Source of the DNA: a bacterium | GTDB lineage: Bacteria; Patescibacteriota; Minisyncoccia; Minisyncoccales; CG1-02-41-26 | Reading direction: 5' to 3' | Assembly: GCA_030616605.1 (NCBI GenBank) | Contig: JAUWWY010000002.1 | Location: forward strand, 118,867 to 182,866 | Length of the DNA: 64,000 nt | Shown here: positions 14,709 through 57,712 of the stretch, piece after piece | How positions within the stretch are numbered: the first letter of the stretch is position 1 | How the letters are laid out: every line of letters begins with the position of its first letter | The notes under the pieces: generated by a model | Told to the model about the DNA's origin: nothing | The model's database searches: none | Seen by the model: the letters and a program-made list of their open reading frames with translations, nothing else | Position numbers and translations under genes: made by a program

Positions 14709-17180
14709 ATGCCAAACGATTCTCAAAAACAGAATAAGGAGATAGGTTATATAAAGCCCCGGGAAATTACTGAGGAAATGAGAGACAGTTATTTGGATTA
14801 TGCGATGTCAGTTATTATCTCTCGAGCTTTACCGGATATCCGCGACGGTTTGAAGCCGGTCCACCGCCGAATTTTGTATGCAATGAATGAAATGGGCTTA
14901 AAGCATAATGTGAAATCCAGAAAATCAGCTACTGTTGTCGGAGAAGTTCTTGGAAAATTTCATCCGCATGGCGATACGGCTGTTTATGATTCTTTAGTGA
15001 GAATGGCTCAAGATTTTTCTTTAAGATATCCATTAATTGAAGGTCAGGGAAATTTTGGTTCAATTGATGGGGATTCTGCGGCTGCCCAAAGATATACCGA
15101 GTGCCGACTTTCAGCCCTGGGGGAAGAAATACTTCGCGATATTGAAAAAGATACAGTTGATTTTAGAGAAAATTATGATGGAACAAGAAAAGAACCTGTT
15201 GTCCTCCCTTCACCTGTTCCTCAACTATTACTTAATGGTTCATTAGGAATTGCCGTGGGAATGGCAACCAAGATTCCTCCTCATAACATTTCTGAAGTAA
15301 TGAAAGCTTGTATCTATTTAATTGACCATCCTGACTCTACCACGGAAAAGATTTTTCAATTTATTGAAGGACCTGATTTTCCAACAGGCGGTATAATTTA
15401 TGGTAAAAAAGATATAATCTCTGCTTATTCTCAAGGAAGGGGTCCGATTTTAATAAGAGGTAAAGCAGAAATTAGAGAGCAGGAAAGAAGCAATTTCCAA
15501 ATTATAATCACTGAAATTCCTTTTCAGGTTCAAAAATCAGATTTGGTTAGGGATTTTGCTAAATTAGTTGAGGATAAAAAGATAGAGGGGATAAAGAATA
15601 TCAGAGATGAATCAGACCGAGAGGGAATGAGAATTGTAATTGAACTTAAGAGAGAAGCTTTTCCGAAAAAAGTTTTAAATGCCCTCTATAAATACACGGC
15701 CTTGCAGAAAACCTTTTATTTAAATATGTTGGCTTTGGTTGACGGCATCCAGCCGAAAATCCTTTCTTTAAGCGACATTTTAACTTTATATTTAAAACAT
15801 AAAAAAGAGGTTGTTATCCGGAGAACAAAGTTTGATTTAAGAAAAGCAAAAGAAAAAGCTCATATTCTTGAAGGACTAATGGTAGCTTTGAAAAATATTG
15901 ATGAGGTGATTAAGACTATTAAGAAATCATCTTCTCGGCAAGAAGCTCAAAAGAACTTAATGAAGAAGTTCAAACTAACTCAAATACAGGCAACAGCTAT
16001 TTTAGAGATGAAACTTCAGAGTTTAGCAAAACTGGAGCGAGAAAAAATTGAAAAAGAACTTAAAGAGATAAAAGCGAGAATAAAAGAATTAACTTTAATT
16101 TTAAAAAGTCCTAAAAAAATAAAAGAGGTGATAAAAAAAGAACTTAAAGAAATGGCTGAGAAATACAAAGACGAAAGAAAAACAAAAGTTATAACTTCTT
16201 CACCTGGAGAAATTGGCGAGGAAGAATTAATTCCCAAAGCTGAAACGATTATAACCTTAACTCAAGGAGGATTCATTAAAAGGGTTAAACCTTCATTGTA
16301 TAAAATTCAAAAGAGAGGAGGGAAAGGAATTATGGGTCTTGAGGTTTCCAAAGAGGATATGGTTGAACACTTTTTAATGGCGAACACCCTGGACAAACTT
16401 TTATTTTTTACTGACTCAGGAAAGGTTTTTCAATCTCTGGTTTGGGAAATTCCTGAAATGAGCAGAATTTCTAAAGGCAGAGGACTTTTAAATTTTTTGG
16501 AAATATCCCAAAGCGAAAAAGTTTTAGGTCTTATTTCCTATGGTAAAGAAGATGAGCAGAAGAAGAAGTATTTAGTAATGGTAACCAAAAATGGTATAAT
16601 TAAAAAAACAGATGTTCAAGCTTTTCAAAATGTCCGTAGGAATGGATTAATAGCTATTAAACTCGGAAAAGAAGACTTTTTGAAAGAAGCTAAAATTATT
16701 GATGAAAGAGATGAAATACTTTTAGTAACTAAGAAAGGGAAATCTATTAGATTTAAGGAAAAAGATTTAAGAGCAATTGGTAGGGCAGCAGCCGGAGTTA
16801 GGGGAATGAGATTAAGTAAAAGAGATGAGATAATTAGAATGGACATAATAAAAGTTCAAAGTGCAAAACTCAAAGCGCAAAACTATCTGTTAATAATTAC
16901 TGAAAATGGCTATGGCAAAAGAACTAAGATTGGAGAGTACAGAATCCAGAAAAGAGGAGGTTCAGGGATAAAAACAGCAAGAATTACTGAAAAAACCGGA
17001 GAAATCGTTTTCTCTCGAGTAGTCGGTAAAGAGGAAAAAGATTTAATTGTTATTTCTAAAAAAGGTCAGGTAATAAGAGTTCCTCTTAGTTCAATTTCAA
17101 TTATTGGCCGAGCCGCATCCGGAGTAAGAGTAATGAAATTAAGCAAAGGAGATAAAGTAGCTTCAGCTATTTGTCTCTAA
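14709..17180 (+). CDS. gyrA: DNA gyrase subunit A
   Basis: [29 protein letters not shown] and C-terminal beta-pinwheel repeats. An in-frame CAAAG-family repeat lies at 16863-16886. Confidence 0.9.
16863..16886 (+). repeat. CAAAG-family patch GCAAAACTCAAAGCGCAAAACTAT inside gyrA
   Basis: Encodes SAKLKAQNY. Shares CTCAAAGCGCAAAACTAT with the argS copy. Confidence 0.8.
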
Positions 17181-17184
17181 AAAC

Positions 17185-17706
17185 ATGCCAGAATTTGTTA
17201 ATCCAATTGAAATTTTAAATCAACTAGAACTCCAAAGCTCTATGATTGCGGCTGATTTTGGCTGTGGGACTGGGGGTTGGACAATTCCTTTAGCTCAGCG
17301 TTTAGAACAGGGAAAAGTTTTTGCCATAGATATTTTAGAGGAACCTCTTTCGGCTTTGAAAGCAAAAACAAGCCTCCAAGGCATTTCTAATATTAATAGA
17401 ATTTTAGCTGATGTTGAAAGGGGGGTTCCAGAAATCCAGGATTCTTCCTGTGATTTGGTTTTAATGACTGACCTTTTATTCCAGATTGACGAAAGAGAAG
17501 TTGTTTTTAAAGAAGCAAATAGGGTTTTGAAAACCGGCAGTAAAATTTTAGTAGTTAGCTGGAATGTAGATTCTTCTTTTGGTCCCAGACAAGGAAAGGT
17601 TTCTCCAGACGAGGTCAAAGAAATTGCCAAAAATTCTGGATTTAAGCTTGAGAAACAATTCAAGGCTGGCGACTACCATTACGGATTGGTATTTACTAAA
17701 GTTTAA
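17185..17706 (+). CDS. Class I SAM-dependent methyltransferase
   Basis: ADFGCGTGGWTIPLAQ motif I. Confidence 0.5.
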   Translation: MPEFVNPIEILNQLELQSSMIAADFGCGTGGWTIPLAQRLEQGKVFAIDILEEPLSALKAKTSLQGISNINRILADVERGVPEIQDSSCDLVLMTDLLFQIDEREVVFKEANRVLKTGSKILVVSWNVDSSFGPRQGKVSPDEVKEIAKNSGFKLEKQFKAGDYHYGLVFTKV

Positions 17707-17720
17707 TTTATAATGGAATA

Positions 17721-18116
17721 ATGAGAAAATTTATTGTAATTTTAATTCTTTCAATAATTTTATTGACACAGGCGAGTTTTATTTTGGCTGCAGCTGCTCC
17801 TGATTGTGATACTTATTGCCAAAATACAAGTACTTGGGACCCACCTGAAGGAGAATTTTGTTTTTGTTCCCCTATTTCTGCTACTTCTGTTGAAGCTATT
17901 GTAGGGCGCATAACCAATTGGGTTTTCTATATTGGTATAATTCTTGCTCCCTTAATGATTATTATCGGCGCTTTTATGTTCTTGACCTCAGCTGGCGAAC
18001 CTGATAAAGTTAGAAGAGCAAAAAAGCTAATTATCTGGACAATTATCGGTTTAGCAGTTATACTGTTTAGTAAAGGACTAATAAGTTTAATAAAATATAT
18101 CTTATTAGGAACATAA
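17721..18116 (+). CDS. VirB2/TrbC-like type IV secretion pilin paralog 1 (Cys-rich)
   Basis: Sec signal peptide, then a Cys-rich stretch, then ITNWVFYIGIILAPLMIIIGAFMFLTSAGEPDKVRRAKKLIIWTIIGLAVIL. This is the two-helix core seen in VirB2 (xxGWLFYVALAI...AKARAKQMLVYAVIGL). Confidence 0.5.
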   Translation: MRKFIVILILSIILLTQASFILAAAAPDCDTYCQNTSTWDPPEGEFCFCSPISATSVEAIVGRITNWVFYIGIILAPLMIIIGAFMFLTSAGEPDKVRRAKKLIIWTIIGLAVILFSKGLISLIKYILLGT

Positions 18117-18138
18117 TAAAAAGGTCGAAAAACCTTAA

Positions 18139-18576
18139 TTGATGTTAAATAAAAAGAAAATGAAAAAAATATTAGCAGGTCTAATTTTGGGAGGATTATT
18201 GGTTAGTTTGTTTTTACCTCTGGCTGTTTCTCAGGCTCAAGAAGTACTTCCTCCTGATAGCTGTAAAATGGCGCATACTATTGCGAACTGTCCAGCTAGC
18301 GGAAATGATTGTGATTTTGACAGCACCACCTATGATTGTGGAATATGTTGTATGCTTAACACTATCTATACTGTTACTAATTGGATTTTTTATATTTTAA
18401 TTCTAGTGGCAGTAATTATGATTATTCTTGGTGGTTTTGTTTTTATGACTGCTGCTGGAAGTCCGGAGAAAACGGCAAAGGGAAGAAATATTGTTGTTTA
18501 TGCTGTTATTGGTATAGCCATTGCTATTATAGCAAAATTGGTTCCTGTATTAGTTAGAACTATTATTGGATTCTAA
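18139..18576 (+). CDS. VirB2/TrbC-like type IV secretion pilin paralog 2 (Cys-rich)
   Basis: Signal peptide, then 7 Cys in about 40 aa, then VTNWIFYILILVAVIMIILGGFVFMTAAGSPEKTAKGRNIVVYAVIGIAIAI. Confidence 0.5.
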   Translation: MMLNKKKMKKILAGLILGGLLVSLFLPLAVSQAQEVLPPDSCKMAHTIANCPASGNDCDFDSTTYDCGICCMLNTIYTVTNWIFYILILVAVIMIILGGFVFMTAAGSPEKTAKGRNIVVYAVIGIAIAIIAKLVPVLVRTIIGF

Positions 18577-18603
18577 AAATAATTCTCTTTTAAATTTTTT
18601 AAA

Positions 18604-18643
18604 ATCAACTCCCTCTTCTCTGAGATGGGAGTTGATTTTAATT
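18604..18643 (+). terminator. Rho-independent terminator after the pilin pair
   Basis: ATCAACTCCC...GGGAGTTGAT stem followed by TTTTAATT. Confidence 0.55.
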
Positions 18644-18656
18644 AGAATAAAAGAAA

Positions 18657-18685
18657 TTGACATAGAAAGATATTTATGCTATACT
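18657..18685 (+). promoter_or_regulatory. Sigma-70-type promoter P1 (TTGACA-17-TATACT)
   Basis: Exact -35 hexamer, 17-nt spacer, 5/6 match at -10. Confidence 0.5.
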
Positions 18686-18728
18686 AAAATAGTTAATAAA
18701 AATTAAATATTAAAATTTCATAAAAGGG

Positions 18729-18757
18729 TTGACAAAGCAAGATAAATTTGCTATAAT
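18729..18757 (+). promoter_or_regulatory. Sigma-70 consensus promoter P2 (TTGACA-17-TATAAT)
   Basis: Perfect consensus hexamers with a 17-nt spacer. AAAGGAGGT RBS at 18790, 5 nt before the ATG at 18803. Confidence 0.6.
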
Positions 18758-18802: not shown

Positions 18803-19219
18803 ATGAAACCTACAGTACTAATAACAGCGTTGGTTTTGGGTTTTGGTCTTCTCTTCTCGGGTTGTGCTTCTCGGATGCTCATAATCCCTAAAGATTATGA
18901 GGGGAGCAAAAAGCTGATTGAGAGATGGGGTTCTAACGTTACTCTTGCCGTTGTAAAAGAAGATGGTAGTCTGGAAGTTTATAATAACCGCTACCCTCCC
19001 TTCCCTCCCCTCGGCAAGTTTGAACTCACAATAGACTCCACAGGTGCTGTTTCTCATAAAGGCACTCTCCCTGGCTATGGATACTCAAGCTATGGTTACT
19101 CTGGCTACGGTTACCCCGGCTATGGCTCGGCTGTTCCAGGAGTTCATCGTAAACCACCCAGTAGTCCTGAGTATTACCGTAAACTACCCAATCGTCATGA
19201 AAGTTACCGTAGATATTGA
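18803..19219 (+). CDS. Lipoprotein with Gly/Tyr-rich C-terminal low-complexity tail
   Basis: Lipobox LFSGC, and a YGYSSYGYSGYGYPGYG tail. Confidence 0.5.
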   Translation: MKPTVLITALVLGFGLLFSGCASRMLIIPKDYEGSKKLIERWGSNVTLAVVKEDGSLEVYNNRYPPFPPLGKFELTIDSTGAVSHKGTLPGYGYSSYGYSGYGYPGYGSAVPGVHRKPPSSPEYYRKLPNRHESYRRY

Positions 19220-19328
19220 TAGCCATTAATCTCTAAACCCAAAAGCGTCAGTTCATAAAAGACTGGCGCTTTTTCTTTGACTTGATTTTTATTATTTTAG
19301 AGATAGAATAATAAATAAAGTTTATTTT

Positions 19329-19466: not shown

Positions 19467-19985
19467 TTAATCATTAGACGTAATACTAACTTTCTTTTTC
19501 TTGGTCTTTTTTGCCCTTGGAATTTTAATGGTTAAAATTCCTTTTTCAAGAGAAGATTTAACTCTTTGAGTATCAATGTTTTCCGGTAAAATTATTTGTC
19601 TTGAGAAAGGTCCCCAATAACATTCTTGATAAAAATAATCCTTCTCTTTATTTGCTTCCGGCTTTTTTCTTTCTCCCTTTATCAGCAACATCTCATTTTC
19701 AATTGTGATTTCTATATCTTCGGGAGTTACTCCAGCAATCGGTGCTTGAACACAAAACTCAGAATCAGTATTGTAAACATCAACCGTTAATTCTCCTTCA
19801 GATTTTGACCAACTCTGGGTTGTTTTCTTTGTTGCTAAGACATCCTCTTTTTCTTTTTTCATTTGTTTTTTTTCAACCCTCCCCCTTTTTTTAGGTTTTT
19901 CTCCTTCTATTTTTATTGGTTTTGTCACCTTTTCTGAATTTTTTTCAACCCCGATATCCTTTTTTAGTTTGTTTAAAAAAGACAT
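19467..19985 (-). CDS. Hsp20/alpha-crystallin family small heat-shock protein
   Basis: ACD core GELTVDVYNTDSEFCVQAPIAGVTPEDIEITIENEMLLIKGERK...ILTIKIPRAKK. Confidence 0.7.
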   Translation of the reverse strand: MSFLNKLKKDIGVEKNSEKVTKPIKIEGEKPKKRGRVEKKQMKKEKEDVLATKKTTQSWSKSEGELTVDVYNTDSEFCVQAPIAGVTPEDIEITIENEMLLIKGERKKPEANKEKDYFYQECYWGPFSRQIILPENIDTQRVKSSLEKGILTIKIPRAKKTKKKKVSITSND

Positions 19986-19989
19986 AGAT

Positions 19990-20694
19990 TTATATTTTAC
20001 AGATACTTTTCAACCTTTTTAGTTTTTTAATGCTTAAAGAAATAAAGCAAGCTAAAACTATTAAAATTATAAGAGGTAAAATAAATTTTGCCAAACCTTC
20101 TATTTTCATTATAGAAAAATTATAGAGTCCATGTAAAGTGGTAGCTATTCCCAGACCAGCTAAAACTAACCATTTTCTTTTTTTAAAATGGAAAAAAGAT
20201 AAAGCCAAAAAATAGCCAATTGAAGCTGAACAAAGAGCGTGCAAGAAAGTCGCTGAAACAAACCGCCAGGCCATAGTTTCCAAAGCTTTACCAATAGTTA
20301 AAAAAGGATGGAAGCTGCTTAAAACCAAAATATTTTCTAAACTTGCAAAACCAAGCGCAGAAATAATCATGTAAAGTAAAATATCAACAGGTTCATCTAA
20401 TTCAGAGTTTTTATAAACTCCGATTCTGACAGCTAGATATTTTGAATATTCTTCAATTAAAGCTCCTCCCAAAAAGATAGCTAAAATAGAACTTAAAGTT
20501 TTTTGATTTTTTAAAAAAGAAATTAAAAAGTGAAAGCCCTTTTCTAAAAAAATAGCCAGAAAAGCAGCTATTATTCCGAAAAAGAAAATTTTCAAAACCA
20601 TCCTGTTTGGTTCAGGATGAACATCTTTTCTGAGATAAAAAATCAGCCAGATAATACCCGGGAGAAAGCCGAGAAGATAAGGAAGATAACTCAT
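19990..20694 (-). CDS. PrsW-family intramembrane metalloprotease
   Basis: EEYSKYLAV, GFASLEN and HGLYNF motifs on a polytopic membrane protein. Confidence 0.6.
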   Translation of the reverse strand: MSYLPYLLGFLPGIIWLIFYLRKDVHPEPNRMVLKIFFFGIIAAFLAIFLEKGFHFLISFLKNQKTLSSILAIFLGGALIEEYSKYLAVRIGVYKNSELDEPVDILLYMIISALGFASLENILVLSSFHPFLTIGKALETMAWRFVSATFLHALCSASIGYFLALSFFHFKKRKWLVLAGLGIATTLHGLYNFSIMKIEGLAKFILPLIILIVLACFISLSIKKLKRLKSICKI

Positions 20695-23213
20695 AGTTTT
20701 GGCCAGGTTTCTACCATTAAGAACCTTTTTTTCCTTTTCAAGGGTAATCTCTGATAAATTTCTTCAGTAATAAATGGCATAAAAGGATGGAGAAGTTTTA
20801 AAGAAGTTAGTAAAACATACAATAAAATCTTTTTGGTATTCTCTTTTTCTTTTTGTGATTTGCTTTTTTCAATATAAATATCACAAAAGTCGTGCCAGAA
20901 AAAGTGGTATAAATTTTGAGCTGCTTGTCCAAATCTAAAATTTTCTAAATCTTTTTCAACTGATTTAATTGTTTCTTCAAGACTCTTTAATATTTTTTTA
21001 TCTGCTTTGGTTAAGTTTTGAACTTTGAACTGTAGCTTTGAGCTTTGAGCTTTGAGCTTTGAATTTGCAGTTTGTTGTAGAACAAACCGCGTAGCATTCC
21101 AAATTTTATTACAAAACTTCTTTCCCATCACAATGTTATTTTCCTCAAATCTAATATCTTGGACTCCTGTTGTCTGCCAAGTTAAACCAAAGCGAGTAGC
21201 ATCGCTCCCATATTTTTCAATCAACTCTAAGGGGTCAATACCTGTGCCAAGCGACTTTGACATTCTCTGTCCAGTTTTTGTCAAAATAGTAGCATGGATG
21301 TAGGCTGTTTTAAAAGGAGCTGTTTTCATAAATTCCAAACCAGAGAAAATCATTCGGGCTATCCAAAGATTTACAATACTGCGATCCGACGAAATAAAGT
21401 GGTTGGGGTAAAATTCTTTAAGACCCCTTGTTTTTTTAGGCCAACCAAGAATTACAAAGGGCCAAAGGGCAGACGAGAACCAGGTATCCAAAACATCTGT
21501 TTCTTGTCTTAATTTTCCTTTATTGCAACTAGGACATTTTTTTAATGCATATTTATCGTCTACAATGGGAAGACATTCACTTTCAAATCTATAAGTATAA
21601 ATCCAAACCAAAGTATCAGTATTCACTTCTTTTTCCGGATGGTGTCGTTTAAAAGCAGTGATTAATTCTTCTAATTTTTTGTATGTTTTCCAGTGTTTTT
21701 TATCTTTAAGGTCAATTTTACCAACAGTTGTTTTTTGGATTTCTGTTATTATTGCTGTTCCGAAAATTTCACCTGTAATACTATTTTCAAAAGCAACTTT
21801 TTCTCCAACCTTTAAGCCATGATTACGCAGTCGGTAAGTCTGAGTTTTATTATCAAAAACTTGCGGTACTACATCTCCAGCAAAACCCATTTTAGAAGTG
21901 GTATTTTTGATTTTTTGTTCTGAATTTTCACAATACCAAATTGGAATCTGATGACCCCACCAAATTTGTCTTGAGATACACCAATCTTTGATGTTTTTTA
22001 ACCAATCAAAATAAATTTTTTCAAAATTTTTTGGATAAATTTTTACCTTTTTCTCTTTAACGGCATTTTTAGCTTTTTCCGCTAATTTTTCCATTTTTAA
22101 AAACCATTGCTTTGAAGGAATAATTTCAACTATTGTATTACAGCGATAACATTTAGGAATAGCCAAATTATGGTTTTTTTCTTTTTCTAAAAGATTAAGT
22201 TTTTTAAGTTTTTTAATTATTTCCTCTCGAGCCTTAAGAGTTTTTAATCCCCTAAAAGAAAGGGGAGCAGCTTTGGAAATTTTTCCTTTTTCATCAATTA
22301 CCTGAACCAAGGGGAGTTTATGATTAATACTGATTTCGTAATCCTTTAAATCATGGGCTGGGGTTACTTTTACAGCCCCTGTCCCAAATTTAGGGTCGAC
22401 CAATTTATCAACAACAATCGGGATTTCTCTATTAACTATTGGTAAGATTATTTTTTGGCCAATCAGATTTTTATATCTTTTATCTTTCGGATTGACTGCT
22501 ACTGCTGTATCACCAAGCATTGTCTCGGGTCTAGTTGTTGCTACCACAAGATAATCAGCTTTGCGCTTTGCGCTTTGCGCTTTGAGTTTATATTTAATGT
22601 ACCAAAGTTTTCCCTTTTTTTCTTCATATTCAAGTTCCAAATCTGATAAGCTGGTTTGACATCTTGAACACCAATTAATCGGTCTTTTTCCCTGATAAAT
22701 CCAACCTTTTTTATAATAGTGCAAAAAAGCTTGCTCCACCGCCTTGACATAATTTCTATCCATAGTAAACCGAGTTCTTGACCAATCACAGCTACATCCA
22801 AGTTTTTTTAATTGGTCTAAGATAATATTGCCGTATTTTTCTTTCCACTGCCAAATTTTTTTGATAAATTTTTCTCTACCTAAATCAAAGCGGGTTTTAT
22901 TTTGTTGTTTAAGTTCTTTCTCAACGACATTTTGAGTAGCAATCCCGGCATGGTCTGTTCCTGGCAGCCAAAGAACTTTTTCACCTTTCATTCTTTTTTT
23001 TCTTACCAAAATATCAACTAAAGTATTTTCCAAAGCATGACCCATATGCAAGCTGCCCGTTATATTAGGTGGGGCAATGGCTACAACAAACTTCTTAATT
23101 TTTTTCTTTTTGGCTGTTGGTAGTTTATCTGGATTGAAAAAACCTGATTTTTCCCAGACACGGTAGATTTTATCTTCCACTTTTTTTGGATTGTAAGTTT
23201 TTGATAATTTCAT
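20691..23213 (-). CDS. valS: Valyl-tRNA synthetase
   Basis: HIGH region PPNITGSLHMGHAL and KMSKSLGT. Two in-frame CAAAG-family repeat patches (21016-21070 and 22572-22605). Confidence 0.9.
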   Translation of the reverse strand: MKLSKTYNPKKVEDKIYRVWEKSGFFNPDKLPTAKKKKIKKFVVAIAPPNITGSLHMGHALENTLVDILVRKKRMKGEKVLWLPGTDHAGIATQNVVEKELKQQNKTRFDLGREKFIKKIWQWKEKYGNIILDQLKKLGCSCDWSRTRFTMDRNYVKAVEQAFLHYYKKGWIYQGKRPINWCSRCQTSLSDLELEYEEKKGKLWYIKYKLKAQSAKRKADYLVVATTRPETMLGDTAVAVNPKDKRYKNLIGQKIILPIVNREIPIVVDKLVDPKFGTGAVKVTPAHDLKDYEISINHKLPLVQVIDEKGKISKAAPLSFRGLKTLKAREEIIKKLKKLNLLEKEKNHNLAIPKCYRCNTIVEIIPSKQWFLKMEKLAEKAKNAVKEKKVKIYPKNFEKIYFDWLKNIKDWCISRQIWWGHQIPIWYCENSEQKIKNTTSKMGFAGDVVPQVFDNKTQTYRLRNHGLKVGEKVAFENSITGEIFGTAIITEIQKTTVGKIDLKDKKHWKTYKKLEELITAFKRHHPEKEVNTDTLVWIYTYRFESECLPIVDDKYALKKCPSCNKGKLRQETDVLDTWFSSALWPFVILGWPKKTRGLKEFYPNHFISSDRSIVNLWIARMIFSGLEFMKTAPFKTAYIHATILTKTGQRMSKSLGTGIDPLELIEKYGSDATRFGLTWQTTGVQDIRFEENNIVMGKKFCNKIWNATRFVLQQTANSKLKAQSSKLQFKVQNLTKADKKILKSLEETIKSVEKDLENFRFGQAAQNLYHFFWHDFCDIYIEKSKSQKEKENTKKILLYVLLTSLKLLHPFMPFITEEIYQRLPLKRKKRFLMVETWPKL
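21016..21070 (-). repeat. CAAAG-family patch (coding strand CAAAGCTCAAAGCTCAAAGCTACAG) inside valS
   Basis: Plus strand reads TTTGAACTTTGAACTGTAGCTTTGAGCTTTGAGCTTTGAGCTTTGAATTTGCAG; encodes KLKAQSSKLQFKVQNL. Confidence 0.8.
22572..22605 (-). repeat. CAAAG-family patch (coding strand CTCAAAGCGCAAAGCGCAAAGCGCAAAGCT) inside valS
   Basis: Encodes KLKAQSAKRKA. Confidence 0.8.
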
Positions 23214-48906: not shown

Positions 48907-50595
48907 ATGCGTAAAGTTTTAATTATTTTTCTTTTAGTCATTTTTATTGGAGTAGGAATAGTTGGATTTTGGTATTGGCAAAAAAATATTTATTCCAAAG
49001 ACACTTTGAAACTTGAAATTTTAGGACCTGAATTAGTTCAAGCCGGCCAGGAAATTGAGTATTTAGTAAAAATGAAAAATAATGGCAAAGTTAGATTGGA
49101 AAATCCTGAGTTAATCTTTCAGGCTCCGGAGCAATCTATTTTAAAAGATTATTCTAATTTAAGAGTTACTCAAAAAATAGAAGACATTTATCCCGGTGAA
49201 CAAAGAACATATTCTTTTAAAGCTCAGCTTTTCGGAGAAAAAGACATTACTTTGGAAGCCAAAGCTTGGTTAAGTTATCAACCAAAGAATTTAAAAGCTC
49301 GCTTTGAATCAAAAACAACCTTGACGATAAGAATTGAATTTATTCCCTTAACTTTTGAGTTTGATTTACCTCTAAAGGTTGAAAAAGGGGAGGATATAAA
49401 ATTTTCTTTAAATTATTTTTCAAACATTGATTATCTTTTAGAGAATTTAAGAGTAAAAATTGAATATCCATCAGATTTTACTTTTGAAAGTTCTCTTCCC
49501 GAAGCTTTAGATGAAAATGAGTGGTCCTTGCCTCCTTTAGTTCAGGCTTCAGGAGGAAGAATAGAGATAAATGGACTAATTGAAGGAAAAGAGGGTCAGA
49601 AAAAGGTTTTCCGAGCCCAGCTGGGCATGCTTAAAGACGGAGATTTTTGGCTCTTAAAAGAAACTGCTCAATCAATAGAAATAATTGAGTCTTCTTTGTA
49701 CATTTCTAATTTAATTAATAATTCCCCAAATTATACAGCAAATCCCGGTGATTTTCTTCATTATGAGATTTACTTTAAAAATATTGGCAAAAGACCAGTT
49801 CAGAAGAAATATATTTTTGCTCGACTTGAGGGAGAATTTTTTGACTTAACAACTCTAAAATCAAACAAGGGAGAATTTGGCCAAGGGGATAACACTATTC
49901 TCTGGGACTGGAAAAATGTTCCCGACCTCAGATTTTTAGATGTTGGTCAAGAAGGAAAGGTTGAATTTTGGATAAGAGTCAAGGAAAGTGTTGATTATCA
50001 AGTTAAAAACGCAAAATTAAGAGCAGAAATAGCTTTAGGGGAAATTGAGAAAGTTTTTGAGACGAAAATAAATTCCCAATTAACTCTTTTCCAAAAAGCC
50101 TACTTTACTCAAGAATTTTTTGAAAATCTAGGTTCTTTGCCGCCCAAGATAGGTCAAGCCATTGATTATGTTATTGTCTGGCAAGTGGAAAATACTTGTA
50201 ATGAGTTAAAAAATGTTAAAGTAAAAAGTGCTTTATCAGAAAATGTTCAGCCGACTGGCAAAATTTTTCCCGAAGATGCTAAATTCACTTATGATTCAGA
50301 ATCAAAAACTGTAATGTGGAATATCGGAGAAGTCAACGCTTGGCAGAGTTTTGAAAATATTCCTCTGATTTTAGCCTTCCAGGTCAGATTGACTCCTGAT
50401 TTTTCTCAAAAAGGAAAAACTCCTCTTTTGATTAAGGAAAGTAATATTTTGGCTGAAGACAATTGGACTTCAGAAATTTTAGAAGAAAAAGCTTCAGCAG
50501 TGAATACCACTTTACCCGATGATGAAACCGTCAGTCCAGAACAAGGAATAGTGGAAGAACAAGGAATAGTGGAAGAACAAGGAATAGTGGAGTGA
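48907..50595 (+). CDS. Membrane-anchored exported protein with beta-sandwich (DUF11/CARDB-like) repeats, hypothetical
   Basis: N-terminal TM/signal segment and repeated beta-rich modules. The C-terminus ends in three EQGIVE copies (an 18-nt DNA repeat at 50539-50592). Confidence 0.35.
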   Translation: MRKVLIIFLLVIFIGVGIVGFWYWQKNIYSKDTLKLEILGPELVQAGQEIEYLVKMKNNGKVRLENPELIFQAPEQSILKDYSNLRVTQKIEDIYPGEQRTYSFKAQLFGEKDITLEAKAWLSYQPKNLKARFESKTTLTIRIEFIPLTFEFDLPLKVEKGEDIKFSLNYFSNIDYLLENLRVKIEYPSDFTFESSLPEALDENEWSLPPLVQASGGRIEINGLIEGKEGQKKVFRAQLGMLKDGDFWLLKETAQSIEIIESSLYISNLINNSPNYTANPGDFLHYEIYFKNIGKRPVQKKYIFARLEGEFFDLTTLKSNKGEFGQGDNTILWDWKNVPDLRFLDVGQEGKVEFWIRVKESVDYQVKNAKLRAEIALGEIEKVFETKINSQLTLFQKAYFTQEFFENLGSLPPKIGQAIDYVIVWQVENTCNELKNVKVKSALSENVQPTGKIFPEDAKFTYDSESKTVMWNIGEVNAWQSFENIPLILAFQVRLTPDFSQKGKTPLLIKESNILAEDNWTSEILEEKASAVNTTLPDDETVSPEQGIVEEQGIVEEQGIVE

Positions 50596-52276: not shown

Positions 52277-55200
52277 ATGAACCACCATAACAACAAAAAA
52301 TCAGAATATATTTCTTTGCAAGAAGCTACTAAATATTGCTCTTATTCGCGAGATTATTTGAAATTGCGTGCTCATCAAGGAAAATTGAAAGCAATTAAGA
52401 TTGCTAGAAACTGGCTGACCAAAAAAGAATGGATAGATGAATATTTGGAAAAGACCAACAACTATAAAAATCAGATAACTGAGCAGAGAAAGGAAAAAGA
52501 GAAAGAGAAAGAGTTAGAAAAAATAGAGGAGACAAGAAGGGAAGAAACAACTAAGCCAACGCCCGTCTTTGCTCCAAAACCCTCTTTTCAATTAGCGCCC
52601 AGAGTCCAGCTGATTGTTTTTATTGTGGCACTGGTTTTTGTTTTGACTTTTATTGGAACTATTTTTGCTTATCCATATTTTGAACCGGTTGTCAGCCCCA
52701 TTGTAAAAGAAATCACTTTTGATATTAAAAAAAATACAGCCTCTATTAAAGACCAAGTCAGCCAATATGTTGCTCAAAATGTAAAAGAAATTAAGAAACA
52801 AATACAAATACTAGTTCAGAAGATAAAACAGGTTCCTCAAAAAATTGTGAGCGTTTTCAAAGGAGAAGAGAAAGTTTTTTTAAGGGAAGATCTTGTTTTA
52901 AAACAAGAGATAGAAAAATTAATTGCTGAGAAATTTGTTACTAAAGAACAATTCAGAGAACTCCAGGAAAGATTTGAAAAACTAAAACAAGAAGGACTGT
53001 CTCAAAAAGAAATAATAAAAGAAGTAGAGGTTATTGTTAAAGAGATAGAAACAATTGATGATAAATCCCTGGTCCTGCTCAAATCCCAAATTTCCGAAAT
53101 CCAGGAATGGGAAAAAGATATTCTGACTCTCCAGATTCTAACTGCTAAACTCCAAACCCATCCTCCCTCTACCCAGGTTTCAACCGCTCCAGTATATATC
53201 GGCTCCCAGGGAATTCAAATAGGAGGAGCTGCGACCTTAGCTTCTTTAGGAGTTTCCGGTATGGCTGGAATTACTAACTTAGGAGTTGGTGGCTCTGCCA
53301 CCCTGGGTTCTGATTCTTTAGACAAACTGAGAGTTTATGCCACTGCTAATTTTATCTCCCCTGTTACTTTAACCAACACCTTCAGAGTTGGCGGGACAAC
53401 TGATTATTTAACTGTTAATTCAAACGGCAATCTTAGTACCACTGGAACTTTAACTGCTGCCACCTCTACTCTTTCCAGTCTTTTCACTACTGGAAATTTG
53501 GCAATAGGCGGTAATCTTGCTGTCTCAGGTACTCAGGTTGTCCAAGCCACCTCCACTTTAGCCACCACCACTATTACCAGATTAGGCATCGCCACAACAA
53601 CTCCATCTTATCCTTTAACCGTGGCTGGCGATATCTGGGGTTCAGGAAATATTGTCTTGGCAGGAACAATTGATACTGGCCAGGGAGCAACTGAAGTTTA
53701 TCTAATGAACCAAAACCTGAGAACATCTGATTCTCCAACTTTTAATAATCTTACTGTTACAAGCACAGCTACCACCACTAACTTAATAGTAACCAGTGAT
53801 TTGACTCTTACAGGACTAACCAATGGTTCAATTCTCTTCTCTACCTCATCAGGACTAATCTCCCAAGACAATGCTAATCTCTTCTGGGATGATACTAATA
53901 ATAGATTGGGCATTGGGACAAGCAGTCCAGCTACTATCTTTCAAGTAATTGGTACAAGCACTTTGCAAACTATTCTTCCTCAAACAACAAACACTTACAC
54001 CTTAGGTTCTCCAACCTACAAATGGGCAAACCTCTATGCTGCCACTACCACCATAGGGGATACAATCATCATTGGTACAAATAGCATTGCAGCTACCTCA
54101 ACTTTAACAATTTCTTCAGCTAATTCCTCAGATATTATCTTAAGCCCAGCACGTTATGTCGGCATCGGGACAACGAGTCCTGCCTCACTTCTCGATGTCT
54201 ATGGTTCTGCCAGATTTGGAACTTCATCTACTTCGACTTTATTTGTTGATTCAGGAAATGGAAGAGTCGGCATCGGGACGACGAATCCGCTAAAATTGTT
54301 GCATGTCGTTGGTGGAGAAGCACGTATGGACGGTGTCCTGACAGCGAACAGCACGGCAAATCTCTATGGTACAGTCAATATTGGGGATGGTGCGGGCGAT
54401 ACGGTCAGTATCTCAGCTGGTAATCTCTCCTTCAACAACAATACGACAGTGACGATGACGGATGGCGGCGGACGAACTCTCGACTTTGGACCAGGGGTTC
54501 TATCCATTAGTAAGGCTACCGGCAAAGTCGGCATCGGGACGGGGAGTCCTTCAGGAACATTAGATGTAAACAAAGGAGGAGTAATAGTAACAAATCTTCA
54601 AGCTCATACCGCTAATTTCTATGGAACTAATTATTCGGGAGGAACAATTGCTATATATGATAGTGCTTCTATTGCAGCTGGTGTTGGCGGAGGAATTAAT
54701 TTAGGAGGAATGTATGTTGGAGATGATGTTATAGAGTTTGCTCAGGTAAGAGCATCTAAGGAAACAGCTACAGTTGGTCAGTATGGGGGTTCGTTGATAT
54801 TTGCTACACGTGTTCATGGAGGGAATATGACTGATTATATGATAATAAATAGTTCAGGCAACGTCGGCATCGGGACGACAACAATAGGTTCGAGATTAAC
54901 CATTCAAAGCTCTGGAAATGCTTCTACAACTTCTGCTTTAAATATCCAAGATTCTGATGGAACAAGTATGTTATATGTAAGAGATGATGGAAACATCGGC
55001 ATCGGGACGGATAGTCCTGCTTATGAATTAGATGTAAATGGATTTATAAAATCAAAGGGTCAGATATATAATTATTGGCAAACTGATTCGTCAGGTTCGG
55101 CTGGTAATGATAAATGGTATCAGATAGCAGAGGCAAATATCATAAGTCAGTATGCTCAATATAGTGCTGTGTTTCATGTGTATCGCCATCGTTTATTTTC

Positions 55201-57712
55201 TTCTTCTGCGTATTCCCAGCAGTTTATGGTTGATTTCAGACAGGATGCCGCTATGACAAACGACCCAATTACTTTTATATGGCCTATACAAGCATCAGGT
55301 GCTTCAGCAATACAAGTTAAGGCTATATTAACCACAAACACTGCAGACTTGAAAACATTAAAGGTTTATGTATATCAAACAGGTACATATTCTATTATTA
55401 GGATAGCACAAGTTCAGGGTAATTTTGACCCCTTTGAATCAGCGTCAGGTATAGAAACAGGTTCTTTGCCTGCAGGGACACAGTATGATTTAGACCACGA
55501 TGCTTTTTATTTGAAAAATGACGGCAACGTCGGCATCGGGACGGCGAGCCCTACACATAACTTAGAAATTGAAGGGACTACGGCACAGATTCAGACGATA
55601 ATGACAGGTACCACAAGTTATAGTGGTCTGGTGGCTGATTCGGATACGGCAACGCATTATCTTGTGGTTGCTACCTACGGCAGTGAGGATACAGGAACAA
55701 TTTTTGGCATAACTCGGGCTGATGTTTCTATGTTATTTGCAATAAATCAGCCATTATTTATTGGAACATTCAGTGCTGAGGATTTGATTATTGGAACTAA
55801 TGATACAGAACGTATGCGTATTTTATCAGATGGCAAAGTCGGCATTGGGACGAGTAGTCCAAATGAAAAACTTTCTGTTTCTGGTAATTTAAGTATAGGA
55901 AATGCGGCTGCTGGGACAGATGCGACCAGGACATTAGTACTAGGGCTTGGGACAATTCCTTCTTCTTCTCCTGCTGATCTAGTCCAGCTTTATGCTGAAA
56001 ATGTGGATAGAGACTTGTGTACAGGAGGAACGGCTAGCGCAAATAGTGAGTATGATGCTGGTAGTAGTGCAGATAAGGTATTCGACGATATTATTACCAC
56101 CTCCTGGATGACCGAGCAGGGAGTTGTAACTGGCTGGGTAAAATATGATTTTGGTAGCGGGAACAATAAGATAATAGACAAATACCGAGTTTATATGGGT
56201 GGTAGCTCTTCGAGGTCTCCTAAAGACTGGACTTTTCAGGGTTCAAATAATGATAGTGATTGGGACACATTAGACACCCAGACTAGTCAGACCTGGAGTG
56301 GTGCCGAATGGAAAGATTACACCTTTAGCAATAGCACTCCTTATCGTTATTATATGATTAATATTACTGCTAATAATGGGGATGCCAACTTTTTGATGAT
56401 GAATGAGATGGAGATGATATTCATGAATCTAGCCGGATTAAAAGTAAGAGATGAGGCAGGGATTATAACGCTACTTTCACCCCACGATGTTGGGACAGGA
56501 GAGTGGATATTTTATTCAGAGAATGCCAATACAGGCAAAGTCCTTAGGGTAGAAATGGAGAGATTAACAAAGAGACTAAATAGAATATTAGGAGGAGGAT
56601 TTGTGACAGAAAACAACAAAACAGAATTGGCAGATCATGCTTTCAATATTGTCGATTCATCAGGGAATAGCTTGTTATTTGTCGGAGATAACGGCAATGT
56701 CGGCATCGGGACAACAAGTTCTTCTAACATTTTAACGGTCAAGAAGGACTCAACTACTGATCCTATTGCTGATGCTTGGACTCAATATTCAACTCCAGAT
56801 AGTAAAATAGTTTTGGGTTCTGCTAATGACCAGGCAGAAGAATATCTGGAGAAATTCAAAGAGTTAATGGTCTATAAATGGAAAAGAAATGAAAATGAAC
56901 AGGAACGTCTGGGTGTTTTGGCTGTCACCTCTACTCCTTCGGAAATCTTAGCTTATGATGCTGGAGGTAATATCCAGGGAATAGACCTTGGCGGCTACAT
57001 TGGCTTTCTCCATGAGGCAATGAAAGCCCAGCAAACCCAAATAGAAGAACTAAGAAAAGAGGTTTTTGCTACAACAACCCTTTCAGTAGAAGAGAACACT
57101 GAAGGTCAAATTGTTAACCTTTCTCTGGAAGAGCTTCGTCGGTCGCTTGCTTTACTCGGCCTTTTAGTGACAGAGACCGGGTCTCTGGAAGTTCAGGAAT
57201 TAAAAGCTCAAGAATTAGAGGTTGGTTCCCAATCAAAGCCAGCTGGTATTACTATTTATGACGAAGAGACCAGTCAGCCCTTTTGTATTAAAGTTAAGGG
57301 CGCTGAGATGATAAATGTGCCTGGTAAATGTGATACTGTACAAACTAATAATAATATCACCGACCCGACCAGTGACACTATTCCAACGCCCGAACCCGAG
57401 CCTGAACCAACGCCAGAGCCTGAACCACAGCCTGAGCCAGAGCCAGAATCAACCATCACCGTCCCGACCGGTGACACTGTTCCAACTCCTGAACCTGAAC
57501 TAGAACCAGAACCAGAACCAGAGCCAACTCCTGAACCTGAACCTGAACCAACTCCAGAGCCCGAGCCAGAACCAACTCCAGAACCTGAACCAACTCCTGA
57601 ACCCGAACCCGAGCCACAGCCCGAACCAACTCCACAGCCCGAACCACAGCCCGAACCAACTCCCGAACCAACTCCCGAACCCGAACCAGCACCGGCGCCA
57701 GTTGAAGAATAA
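52277..57712 (+). CDS. Giant (1811 aa) membrane-anchored surface protein with an N-terminal HTH-like domain, tail-fibre-like repeats, a discoidin-like domain and a PEPT-rich C-terminal tail
   Basis: N-terminus [41 protein letters not shown] resembles an HTH_17/excisionase fold. TM helix [23 protein letters not shown]. Nine (N/K/R)VGIGT(T/S)SP...L.V.G repeats. [10 protein letters not shown]...GWVKYDFG...YRVYMG...[12 protein letters not shown] is F5/8-type-C-like. The last ~110 aa are (PEPEPT)n. Confidence 0.7.
57360..57705 (+). repeat. Hexa/nonanucleotide-periodic coding repeat (CCNGAACCNGAACCNACT) encoding (PEPEPT)n
   Basis: Direct reading of the sequence. The antisense strand gives the spurious G/S-rich ORF 57274-57747. 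Confidence 0.8.

What the first reader, a model, noticed from the sequence alone, without database searches (positions are those of the whole stretch)
17721..18576. Tandem pair of VirB2/TrbC-like pilins with Cys-rich N-terminal regions in a housekeeping neighbourhood
Both proteins have a Sec signal peptide, a short Cys-rich mature N-terminus (5 and 7 Cys; CDTYCQNTSTW...CFCSP and CKMAHTIANCPASGNDCDFDSTTYDCGICC), and the hallmark two-helix VirB2 core TNW[VI]FYI...(A/G)GxP(D/E)K...A(K)...[IV]Y(A/T)[VI]IG. No VirB4, VirB6 or coupling protein lies within about 15 kb on either side. The two genes sit between gyrA and valS. In host-attached reduced bacteria such pilins may form contact or DNA-uptake filaments. 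The disulfide-rich extension is not a feature of classical VirB2.
Basis: partly seen in the sequence, partly recalled or inferred. Interest (0 to 1): 0.55.

Follow-up and report, generated by a model that had tools for sequence, protein, structure and literature searches.

The report
Tandem VirB2-like pilins of Patescibacteria

Summary
The two ORFs exist as described: p1 at 17721-18116 and p2 at 18139-18576, with the real p2 start probably 18160. Both pass Pfam PF18895 (T4SS_pilin) above its gathering score. Each has a Sec signal peptide, a short Cys-containing ectodomain, and a two-helix hairpin with a basic G-x-P-x-K loop.

Corrections: the Cys counts are 4 and 6, not 5 and 7. The downstream synthetase is LeuS, not ValS.

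No T4SS gene lies anywhere in the 64-kb window. The order GyrA-methyltransferase-[pilins]-Hsp20(-)-PrsW(-) recurs in most of the 37 loci from species-representative genomes that encode p1 relatives, and none shows a T4SS marker within 10 kb. The pair is therefore a fixed, vertically inherited operon detached from the T4SS.

The family is very large (93,180 clusters at 50% identity). VirB2-like pilins and tandem arrays of 2-11 genes in Patescibacteria were published in 2023 and 2025.

The hairpin core is conserved, while the ectodomain is hypervariable and was swapped between close relatives. Its Cys count is even in 78 of 82 Cys-bearing cases, which fits disulfides.

I could not test for VirB4 in this genome. 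Published tables report it in most Nealsonbacteria assemblies.

Verdict: new member of a known kind, low to moderate interest.

The parts
17721..18116 (+). p1, VirB2-like pilin of family PF18895 (131 aa). Signal peptide about residues 1-25. Ectodomain about 26-63 with C29, C33, C47, C49. Helix 1 about 64-89. Cytoplasmic loop S90-R99 (SAGEPDKVRR). Helix 2 about 100-128.
   Evidence: ORF. PF18895 at 49 bits, E 6.3e-13. AF2 helices H2-24, H57-89, H94-128, mean pLDDT 76.6. 21 homologues, all PF18895. Invariant A76, P77, L78, M79, I80, F85, P94, G110.
18160..18576 (+). p2, second VirB2-like pilin (138 aa from ATG 18160; the mechanical ORF starts at TTG 18139). Signal peptide residues 1-26 (..AVSQA|QE). 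Ectodomain 27-74 with six Cys in the pattern C-x8-CPASGxDC-x8-C-x2-CC. Helix 1 W75-M96. Loop T97-N110 (TAAGSPEKTAKGRN). Helix 2 I111-I136.
   Evidence: ORF. PF18895 at 45.7 bits. P0023 is the 138-aa form on the same 224,477-bp contig. The 6-Cys pattern is conserved in orthologues. AF2 H60-96 and H102-137 plus a small hairpin E34-36/E50-52, pLDDT above 90 in the core.
17686..17714 (+). Promoter-like site TTGGTA-17-TATAAT inside the end of the methyltransferase gene. It ends 6 nt before the p1 ATG, so the transcript may be leaderless. Alternatively the pair is co-transcribed with gyrA and the methyltransferase gene.
   Evidence: Consensus scan, 10 of 12 matches. This is a pattern match only.
18599..18640 (+). 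Intrinsic-terminator-like hairpin followed by a U-run, closing the p1-p2 unit.
   Evidence: RNA fold of 18577-18660: -29 kcal/mol, z = -6.2, and 0 of 200 shuffles fold as well.
17185..17706 (+). Class I SAM-dependent methyltransferase (173 aa), the conserved upstream neighbour. It starts 4 nt after gyrA and ends 14 nt before p1.
   Evidence: Pfam Methyltransf_11/25/31. It sits directly upstream of the pilins in most of the mapped loci.
14709..17180 (+). gyrA, the conserved syntenic anchor upstream.
   Evidence: ORF and translation. Orthologues carry DNA_topoisoIV/DNA_gyraseA_C. 56-80% identity to the loci.
19467..19985 (-). Hsp20, convergent with the pilin genes. It is the conserved downstream neighbour of pilin arrays, including arrays in Saccharibacteria-type T4SS clusters.
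   Evidence: Pfam HSP20. Synteny.
19990..20694 (-). PrsW-family intramembrane metalloprotease, a conserved neighbour beyond Hsp20.
   Evidence: Pfam PrsW-protease. Synteny.

Best explanation
p1 and p2 are two diverged paralogous subunits of the VirB2-like pilin family that is specific to and abundant in Patescibacteria (Pfam PF18895). They are encoded as a small operon at a fixed chromosomal site, away from the T4SS ATPase genes.

Proposed mechanism:
1. Each precursor is exported by Sec and its signal peptide is removed.
2. The mature protein sits in the cytoplasmic membrane as a helical hairpin. Both ends face outside, and the short basic loop (AG-D/E/S-P-x-K...K/R) faces the cytoplasm.
3. 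A VirB4-type T4SS encoded elsewhere in the genome extracts the subunits and stacks them into a pilus or conduit, as VirB2, TrbC and TraA pilins are assembled.
4. In the assembled structure the loop lines the lumen. The N-terminal Cys-containing ectodomain, probably held by 2 (p1) or 3 (p2) disulfides, sits on the outer surface and contacts the host cell.
5. The conserved core provides assembly, and the fast-changing ectodomain provides host or strain specificity.

Shown here: the genes, family membership, predicted hairpin topology, conservation, synteny, ectodomain variability and even Cys counts.

Inferred: signal-peptide cleavage, disulfides, polymerisation, dependence on a T4SS, and a role in host contact.
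For: Family membership:
- Both proteins pass PF18895, and all 69 homologues found carry it except two.
- 26 of 49 aligned relatives also match TrbC/VirB2 PF04956. P0050 and P0062 pass its gathering score.
- P0062 lies in an array of five pilin genes next to a P-loop_TraG/AAA_10 VirB4-like ATPase, a TraC-like protein and a PrgI-like protein.
- NCBI annotates relatives as 'pilin' and 'TrbC/VirB2 family protein'.

Topology:
- AF2 gives a signal helix plus a two-helix hairpin with pLDDT 85-92 in the core.
- The loop is the most conserved part (P94, G92; G100) and is basic.
- The only pilin-like structural neighbour is the Aeropyrum pernix conjugation pilin 8dfu (TM 0.70 on the target, rmsd 3.0 A). 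The match is not significant.

The locus is a real unit:
- There is a terminator hairpin after p2.
- GC content is the same as the rest of the window.
- GyrA-MTase-[2-4 pilins]-Hsp20-PrsW is conserved in most of the 37 species-level loci, at GyrA identities of 56-80%.

The ectodomain is surface-exposed and variable:
- Its length ranges from 0 to about 140 residues, with 0-14 Cys. The Cys count is even in 78 of 82 Cys-bearing cases.
- p1 and P0005 share a nearly identical core (about 93% by inspection of the alignment) but have unrelated ectodomains.
- CPR genomes are enriched in MdbA-like oxidoreductase plus VKOR, which could form extracytoplasmic disulfides (10.1101/335083).

Functional precedent:
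- The pilin array in the T4SS cluster of Southlakia epibionticum is essential for epibiotic growth (PMC10633639).
- VirB2-like pilins were found in 1,948 VirB4-containing Patescibacteria assemblies and were near virB4 in only 1,135 of them. 441 arrays of 2-11 pilin genes were reported (PMC12102498).
- VirB4 is reported present in two genomes that carry this same locus, Nealsonbacteria RBG_13_36_15 (L041) and RBG_13_42_11 (L040), and in 8 of 9 Nealsonbacteria rows read.
Against: - No T4SS gene is in the 64-kb window or within 10 kb of the orthologous locus in any relative.
- I could not test for VirB4 in this genome. Its contig is not in the look-up index or among the species representatives.
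- Two draft assemblies that carry the same locus are listed as lacking VirB4: Parcubacteria DG_74_3 and Wildermuthbacteria RIFCSPHIGHO2_12_FULL_40_12.
- p1 and p2 do not match the classical TrbC model at E<=1. A profile comparison with Agrobacterium VirB2 gave nothing.
- Fold searches are not significant, because a helical hairpin is too simple a fold.
- The papers and reviews I searched report no pilus made of these proteins in any Patescibacterium.
- Some family members carry ectodomains of up to about 800 residues, or are fusions of 2-17 hairpins, which are hard to fit into a VirB2-type helical filament.
Confidence: 0.6

Rival explanations
1. T4SS-independent surface display. The PF18895 hairpin is simply a stable two-helix membrane anchor. 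It presents small disulfide-rich, and sometimes very large, ectodomains on the cell surface as adhesins or host-recognition modules, with no polymerisation into a pilus.
For: - The locus is never next to T4SS genes in this lineage.
- Two assemblies with the locus are listed without VirB4.
- The same core is fused to a Kazal-domain protein of at least 882 aa (L013), to 361-531-aa proteins, and to a Kre9/KNH Ig-like domain (P0016).
- Ectodomains are swapped like cassettes on a constant core.
- Protein O-mannosyltransferase genes are inserted beside the array in L025 and L042.
Against: - The most conserved part is the cytoplasmic loop and the helix packing residues. That suggests a conserved interaction partner or assembly interface rather than a passive anchor.
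- Relatives sit inside T4SS clusters and pass the TrbC/VirB2 model.
- The pilin array is essential together with the T4SS in S. epibionticum (PMC10633639).
- The 'No VirB4' assemblies are incomplete drafts of about 0.5 Mb.
Confidence: 0.27
2. The proteins belong to another envelope machine, such as the type IV pilus or competence apparatus, rather than a T4SS.
For: - In one Nealsonbacteria locus (L028), PilB-like and PilT-like T2SSE ATPases are inserted between gyrA and the methyltransferase, just upstream of four pilins.
- A PilM-like gene lies about 10 kb away in L004.
Against: - p1 and p2 have ordinary Sec signal peptides and no class III (G|FxxxE) prepilin leader (sequence).
- They have two C-terminal helices, not one N-terminal helix.
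- The PilB/PilT insertion is seen in only one of the mapped loci.
- There is no match to any T4P pilin family.
Confidence: 0.05
3. The ORFs are chance or decayed remnants of a lost mobile element and have no function.
For: They are detached from any T4SS genes.
Against: - Both are intact.
- They are conserved in sequence and position across genomes whose GyrA is only 56-80% identical.
- Composition equals that of the host genome.
- Core residues are invariant.
- A terminator follows the pair.
Confidence: 0.01

Closest known systems
Patescibacteria VirB2-like pilin arrays (Pfam PF18895 T4SS_pilin), for example the essential pilin array in the T4SS cluster SEML1_0006-0019 of Southlakia epibionticum (PMC10633639) and the 441 arrays catalogued by Quinonero-Coronel et al. 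2025 (PMC12102498)
   Same: - Same Pfam family.
- Same architecture: Sec signal peptide, short ectodomain, two-helix hairpin.
- Tandem, strongly diverged paralogues. Here the two are 44% identical over the core; the published within-array mean is 25% with a maximum of 54%.
- Monoderm host.
- A convergent Hsp20 gene follows the array in the two T4SS-linked, Saccharibacteria-like loci examined (L009, L010) as it does here.
   Different: - Here the array is not in the T4SS cluster. It sits at a fixed housekeeping site (gyrA-methyltransferase / Hsp20-PrsW) throughout a Paceibacteria lineage.
- The array has only two copies.
- The ectodomains are more Cys-rich (4 and 6 Cys) than in the Saccharibacteria-type pilins seen (mostly 0-4).
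Classical VirB2/TrbC pilins of diderm T4SSs (Pfam PF04956; Agrobacterium VirB2, RP4 TrbC)
   Same: - Small size, a cleaved leader, and a two-helix hairpin with a short basic loop.
- Relatives of p2 pass the PF04956 model.
- Established knowledge for VirB2-type pili: the loop lines the lumen and the termini face outwards.
   Different: - p1 and p2 do not match PF04956 at E<=1, and there was no signal against Agrobacterium VirB2 in hhalign.
- They have an ordinary short signal peptide, not the long VirB2/TrbC leader.
- They carry a Cys-containing N-terminal ectodomain.
- There is no adjacent virB3/virB4, whereas virB2 in pTiC58 is flanked by virB1 and virB3-virB4.
- The host is a monoderm.
Mbov_0395 / ICE_MMCAP2_0565 pilin-like conjugal transfer protein of Mycoplasma ICEs (NCBIfam NF045849)
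   Same: It is a small two-helix pilin-like protein of a monoderm (Mollicutes) conjugative system. Full-length matches to the 80-position model: p1 E 3.7e-7, p2 E 1.1e-5.
   Different: - Scores (29.7 and 25.0 bits) are below the curated cut-off of 40, so p1 and p2 are not members of that equivalog.
- Those proteins are ICE-borne. These are chromosomal, in a housekeeping context.
Dispersed or amplified virB2 genes of Rickettsiales and Bartonella T4SSs (as cited in PMC12102498)
   Same: Multiple diverged virB2 paralogues in tandem, T4SS genes scattered over the chromosome, and variation attributed to interaction with different host surfaces.
   Different: Those are diderm alphaproteobacteria with PF04956-type pilins. 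I made no sequence-level comparison here.

Membership tests
Pfam PF18895 T4SS_pilin (Patescibacteria VirB2-like pilins) | Match to the family HMM above the gathering score (26.6 bits) | tested here: met
   p1 scores 49.0 bits (E 6.3e-13) and p2 scores 45.7 bits (E 7e-12), each covering nearly the whole 71-position model.
Pfam PF18895 T4SS_pilin (Patescibacteria VirB2-like pilins) | Signal peptide followed by a two-helix hydrophobic hairpin with a short polar/basic loop | tested here: met
   Hydropathy segments. AF2 helices H57-89/H94-128 for p1 and H60-96/H102-137 for p2, with core pLDDT 85-92.
Pfam PF18895 T4SS_pilin (Patescibacteria VirB2-like pilins) | Occurrence in Patescibacteria, often as tandem diverged paralogues | tested here: met
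   Named homologues are Patescibacteria, Nealsonbacteria and Paceibacterota. Arrays of 2-5 genes occur at the same locus in relatives.
Classical TrbC/VirB2 pilin (Pfam PF04956) | Match to the TrbC/VirB2 HMM | tested here: not met
   No PF04956 hit for p1 or p2 at E<=1. The link is only transitive: 26 of 49 relatives hit at E<=0.01, and P0050 and P0062 pass the cut-off. Agrobacterium VirB2 hits PF04956 only.
Classical TrbC/VirB2 pilin (Pfam PF04956) | Gene lies in a T4SS operon next to virB3/virB4 (or trbD/trbE) | tested here: not met
   No T4SS component in the 64-kb window, nor within 10 kb in the mapped orthologous loci.
T4SS pilus subunit (functional class) | A VirB4-family ATPase and membrane translocon encoded in the same genome | not testable with these tools
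   The window's contig (224,477 bp, NCBI) is not in the contig look-up or among GTDB species representatives. Indirect evidence from Table S1 of PMC12102498: VirB4 'Yes' for two genomes with this locus (L040, L041), 'No' for two (L021, L043), and 8 of 9 Nealsonbacteria rows 'Yes'.
T4SS pilus subunit (functional class) | Polymerises into an extracellular filament | not testable with these tools
   Needs microscopy or biochemistry. The papers I searched report no such filament for any Patescibacterium.
NCBIfam NF045849 Mbov_0395 pilin-like conjugal transfer protein | Score at or above the curated cut-off (40 bits) | tested here: not met
   29.7 and 25.0 bits.
Type IV pilin (T4P/T2SS pseudopilin) | Class III signal peptide with G|F-x-x-x-E and a single N-terminal hydrophobic helix | tested here: not met
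   The N-termini are MRKFIVILIL... and MKKILAGLIL..., with A-x-A-type cleavage sites and no G|FxxxE. There are two C-terminal helices and no T4P family hit.
Kazal-type or other known disulfide-rich domain (for the ectodomains) | Match of the Cys-rich segment to a known domain model | tested here: not met
   The isolated ectodomains of p1 and p2 gave no meaningful Pfam hit at E<=10. Kazal domains do occur on another family member, L013.

The most novel reading that the evidence does not exclude
In this Paceibacteria lineage the pilin genes have become a self-standing host-specificity locus, separate from the T4SS cluster. A constant hairpin core serves as a universal assembly or anchor module. 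Unrelated disulfide-rich ectodomains, from 10 to more than 800 residues, are exchanged onto it like cassettes. The array keeps an ancient linkage to Hsp20 that is shared with the two T4SS-linked, Saccharibacteria-like loci examined, which hints at a dedicated small-heat-shock chaperone or a common ancestral cluster that later split. If the pilins work even in genomes without VirB4, this would be a T4SS-independent use of a VirB2 fold.
Probability: 0.2. Interest if true: 0.5.

Novelty: new member of a known kind. Interest (0 to 1): 0.25.

Why it matters
Patescibacteria are thought to live attached to host cells, and their T4SS with its unusual pilins is essential in the one species tested genetically. 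Nobody has yet shown what the pilins build.

This locus adds little that is new in kind. It does show that in one large lineage the pilin genes are kept at a fixed housekeeping site away from the T4SS. It also shows that the conserved part is the membrane hairpin and its loop, while the outward-facing Cys-rich segment changes quickly and is even replaced outright between close relatives. That pattern marks the ectodomain as a candidate determinant of host range, and these pairs as convenient markers for strain-level host specificity in metagenomes.

Tried and rejected
- **Contig look-up.** Looking up p1 and p2 to read more of the 224-kb contig returned nothing on record. The exact p2 ORF from the TTG is not in the protein collection.
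- **Species representatives.** The window's own genome is not among GTDB representatives, so a same-genome search for VirB4 was impossible.
- **PDB by sequence profile.** Only chance transmembrane matches.
- **Foldseek against PDB for both models.** Nothing significant. The archaeal conjugation pilin 8dfu appears at rank 15 and rank 25 only.
- **hhalign of the family alignment against a single Agrobacterium VirB2.** No signal. I did not build a broader VirB2 alignment, because tblastn of plasmids returned only close alphaproteobacterial VirB2s.
- **R388 accession BR000038.** Not in the plasmid collection.
- **Kazal-like reading of the p2 motif C-x6-C-x2-DSTTYDC.** Considered and rejected, because there is no HMM support.
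- **T4SS markers near the orthologous loci.** phmmer with TrsD-like, PrgI-like and Agrobacterium VirB4/VirD4 queries found none. The Walker-A proteins inserted in L028 are PilB/PilT-type, not VirB4.
- **GC skew or composition signal for an island or an origin.** None.
- **Hsp20 or disulfides in the Southlakia paper text.** Not mentioned.
Full report
**1. The observation**

The window (34% GC) holds two adjacent + strand ORFs at exactly the stated coordinates: p1 at 17721-18116 (131 aa) and p2 at 18139-18576 (145 aa from a TTG). The public database copy of p2 (P0023, on the same 224,477-bp NCBI contig as p1) and its orthologues begin MKKIL. The real start is therefore most likely ATG 18160, giving 138 aa.

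The two proteins are paralogues, 44% identical over the 43-residue core. No third copy exists in the window.

Each has four parts:
- a hydrophobic N-terminal signal-like segment ending in an A-x-A-type site;
- a 35-45-residue polar segment containing Cys;
- two long hydrophobic helices;
- a short basic loop joining the helices, SAGEPDKVRR in p1 and TAAGSPEKTAKGRN in p2.

Two details in the finding are wrong. The Cys counts are 4 and 6, not 5 and 7. The class I synthetase at 20691-23213 is LeuS, because it carries the PF13603 editing domain, not ValS.

**2. Family**

Both proteins pass Pfam PF18895 (T4SS_pilin) well above its gathering score, at 49.0 and 45.7 bits against 26.6. They do not hit the classical TrbC/VirB2 model PF04956 at E<=1. 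A profile comparison with Agrobacterium VirB2 gave nothing.

The link to VirB2 is transitive but solid:
- 26 of 49 aligned relatives match PF04956 at E<=0.01.
- P0050 and P0062, found from p2 by phmmer, pass the PF04956 cut-off.
- P0062 lies in an array of five annotated PF18895 pilin genes beside a P-loop_TraG/AAA_10 VirB4-like ATPase, a TraC/TrsD-like protein and a PrgI-like protein.

NCBIfam gives sub-threshold but full-length matches to the Mycoplasma ICE 'Mbov_0395 pilin-like conjugal transfer protein'.

An exhaustive profile search finds 93,180 clusters at 50% identity with E<=1e-3, and 35,655 with E<=1e-10. This is one of the large protein families of uncultured bacteria, not a rarity.

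**3. Structure**

AlphaFold2 with family alignments gives, for both proteins, a signal helix, a low-to-moderate-confidence ectodomain (pLDDT 60-75; a small beta-hairpin in p2), and a confident helical hairpin (pLDDT 85-92).

The fold is compatible with a VirB2-type pilin but cannot prove it.

**4. Surroundings**

Pfam scans of essentially all ORFs of 100 aa or more in the window show only housekeeping and envelope genes: RuvA, a Mur ligase, RtcB, MetK, FtsH, S1, GyrA, LeuS, TsaD, RecG, GreA, IMPDH, IF3, L20, SmpB, ArgS, IleS, RecO, MetS, TatD and others. There is no VirB4, VirB6, VirB11, coupling protein, TrsD or PrgI.

The local gene spacing is tight:
- gyrA stops 4 nt before a 173-aa SAM methyltransferase gene.
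- That gene stops 14 nt before p1.
- p2 follows p1 after 43 nt.

A strong hairpin with a U-tail follows p2 (-29 kcal/mol, z -6.2). The next ORF (18803-19219) has its own near-consensus promoter-like sites and terminator. The pair is therefore a bicistronic unit, possibly co-transcribed with gyrA and the methyltransferase gene.

**5. Relatives**

Contexts of homologues from NCBI, JGI and ENA assemblies, together with 37 loci from species-representative genomes, were mapped with local HMM and phmmer searches.

- Most loci show FtsH-S1-Lactamase_B_3-GyrA-methyltransferase-[pilins]-Hsp20(-)-PrsW(-)-LeuS/TsaD. Complete arrays hold 2 to 4 pilins. One relative with a different upstream flank holds 5.
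- These loci carry labels such as Nealsonbacteria, Gribaldobacteria, Wildermuthbacteria and Parcubacteria.
- Their GyrA is 56-80% identical to the window's. The nearest is the contig carrying P0011, which NCBI labels Nealsonbacteria, at 80%.
- No T4SS marker was found within 10 kb in any of them.

The detachment from the T4SS is thus an old, fixed feature of this lineage, not an assembly accident or a decaying island. Composition is also uniform across the window.

**6. The N-terminal segment**

Across 152 non-identical family members collected here, the segment between the signal peptide and helix 1 varies from 0 to about 140 residues and holds 0-14 Cys. Of the 82 members with Cys there, 78 have an even number. 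This is what disulfide pairing predicts.

The segmentation behind these numbers is a crude hydropathy heuristic, so they are approximate.

- p2-type pilins keep one of two patterns. One has six Cys (C...CPASGxC.FDSTTYDC..CC, as in p2). The other has four Cys (ECC...C...WG..C).
- p1-type pilins usually have a short Cys-free segment but sporadically carry 4-14 Cys.
- p1 and P0005 share a nearly identical hairpin (about 93% by inspection of the alignment) but have unrelated ectodomains. The P0005 ectodomain matches that of the more distant P0007. This indicates replacement of the ectodomain on a constant core.

Other members fuse the same core to a Kre9/KNH Ig-like domain (P0016) or to a Kazal-domain protein of at least 882 residues (L013). 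The isolated ectodomains of p1 and p2 match no known domain.

The Cys-rich extension is therefore real and absent from classical VirB2, but it is a common, variable feature of this family.

**7. What is already known**

- Wang et al. [quoted passage not shown] They showed the pilins are essential for epibiotic growth, and noted that Gram-positive T4SSs normally lack a pilus.
- Quinonero-Coronel et al. 2025 (PMC12102498) searched 3,035 Patescibacteria genomes with PF18895 and PF04956. They found VirB2-like pilins in 1,948 VirB4-containing assemblies, near virB4 in only 1,135 of them, and 441 arrays of 2-11 diverged pilin genes.
- A 2025 review (PMC12857230) repeats this and stresses that a pilus remains hypothetical.
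- An earlier study found CPR genomes enriched in MdbA-like thiol-disulfide oxidoreductase and VKOR (10.1101/335083). That supplies a route to extracytoplasmic disulfides.

**8. T4SS in the genome**

I could not read beyond the window. Its proteins are not in the contig index, and the genome is not a species representative.

Indirect evidence comes from Table S1 of PMC12102498:
- VirB4 is present in Nealsonbacteria RBG_13_36_15 and RBG_13_42_11, both of which carry this same locus (L041, L040).
- VirB4 is absent in the drafts Parcubacteria DG_74_3 (L021) and Wildermuthbacteria RIFCSPHIGHO2_12_FULL_40_12 (L043).
- Of nine Nealsonbacteria rows read, eight say 'Yes'.

This favours a distal T4SS but does not exclude T4SS-independent use.

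**9. Mechanism and verdict**

The best-supported reading (about 0.6) is that p1 and p2 are Sec-exported hairpin pilins assembled by a distally encoded, monoderm-type T4SS. The conserved basic loop would face the cytoplasm and then the lumen. The disulfide-stabilised, fast-evolving ectodomain would sit on the outside and mediate host contact.

The main rival (about 0.27) is that the hairpin is only a membrane anchor for surface display.

The identification as a PF18895 VirB2-like pilin pair is secure (above 0.95). Everything about assembly and function is inference.

This is a correct but ordinary finding: a new member of a known kind. It has two modest points of added value, namely the lineage-wide fixed housekeeping location and the evidence for ectodomain replacement and even Cys counts.

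Noticed in passing
window 19467-19985 (-); L009 10643-11125; L010 10957-11448; the mapped loci: A convergent Hsp20 gene follows the pilin array wherever the downstream sequence is available. This holds both in the GyrA-linked Paceibacteria loci and in the two T4SS-linked, Saccharibacteria-like loci. In three loci other genes are inserted between the array and Hsp20. The linkage spans classes and may be ancestral or functional.
   Followed up: partly
P0071-P0219; P0089, P0077, P0136, P0164: The best-scoring hits of the exhaustive family search are single polypeptides containing 2-17 pilin hairpins fused head to tail behind one signal peptide. Lengths reach 1,775 aa.
   Followed up: partly
L013 24-2672: A protein of at least 882 aa, cut by the contig end, has Kazal-type Cys-rich domains and a C-terminal p1-type pilin hairpin. 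L047 (531 aa) and L023 (361 aa) are further long proteins with a PF18895 domain.
   Followed up: partly
L025 10763-12247; L042 8832-11926: Protein O-mannosyltransferase (PMT) genes are inserted between the pilin array and Hsp20 in two relatives. This hints that pilin ectodomains may be glycosylated.
   Followed up: no
L028 4486-9104: PilT-like (355 aa) and PilB-like (592 aa, with an MshEN domain) T2SSE ATPases are inserted between gyrA and the methyltransferase gene, directly upstream of a four-pilin array, in one Nealsonbacteria genome.
   Followed up: partly
window 18803-19219 (+), with 18657-18757 and 19241-19273: A 138-aa ORF has a lipoprotein-type signal (LFSGC) and a Tyr/Gly-rich tail. 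It has two near-consensus promoter-like sites (one 12 of 12), an AAAGGAGG ribosome-binding site and a 13-bp-stem terminator. It has no Pfam match. No gene is called at this position in the related loci whose gene calls were listed (L001, L002/L003, L004).
   Followed up: no
window 17686-17714: A promoter-like site (TTGGTA-17-TATAAT) ends 6 nt before the p1 start codon, so p1 may be translated from a leaderless transcript.
   Followed up: no
window 52277-57712 and 48907-50595: Two large likely surface proteins: 1,811 aa with an F5/8 type C (discoidin) domain and an acidic repeat tail, and 562 aa with DUF7619. The 52-56 kb stretch has a higher GC content (0.40 against 0.33).
   Followed up: no
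L042 2387-6496; L024 564-4631: gyrA is much longer (about 1,370 aa) in some relatives, which suggests an intein or another insertion.
   Followed up: no
window 17721-18116 and 18160-18576: p1 and p2 give significant but sub-threshold matches to the Mycoplasma ICE pilin-like protein family NF045849. A VirB2-like protein may therefore already exist in monoderm MPF_FATA-type systems, which bears on where the Patescibacteria pilins came from.
   Followed up: no
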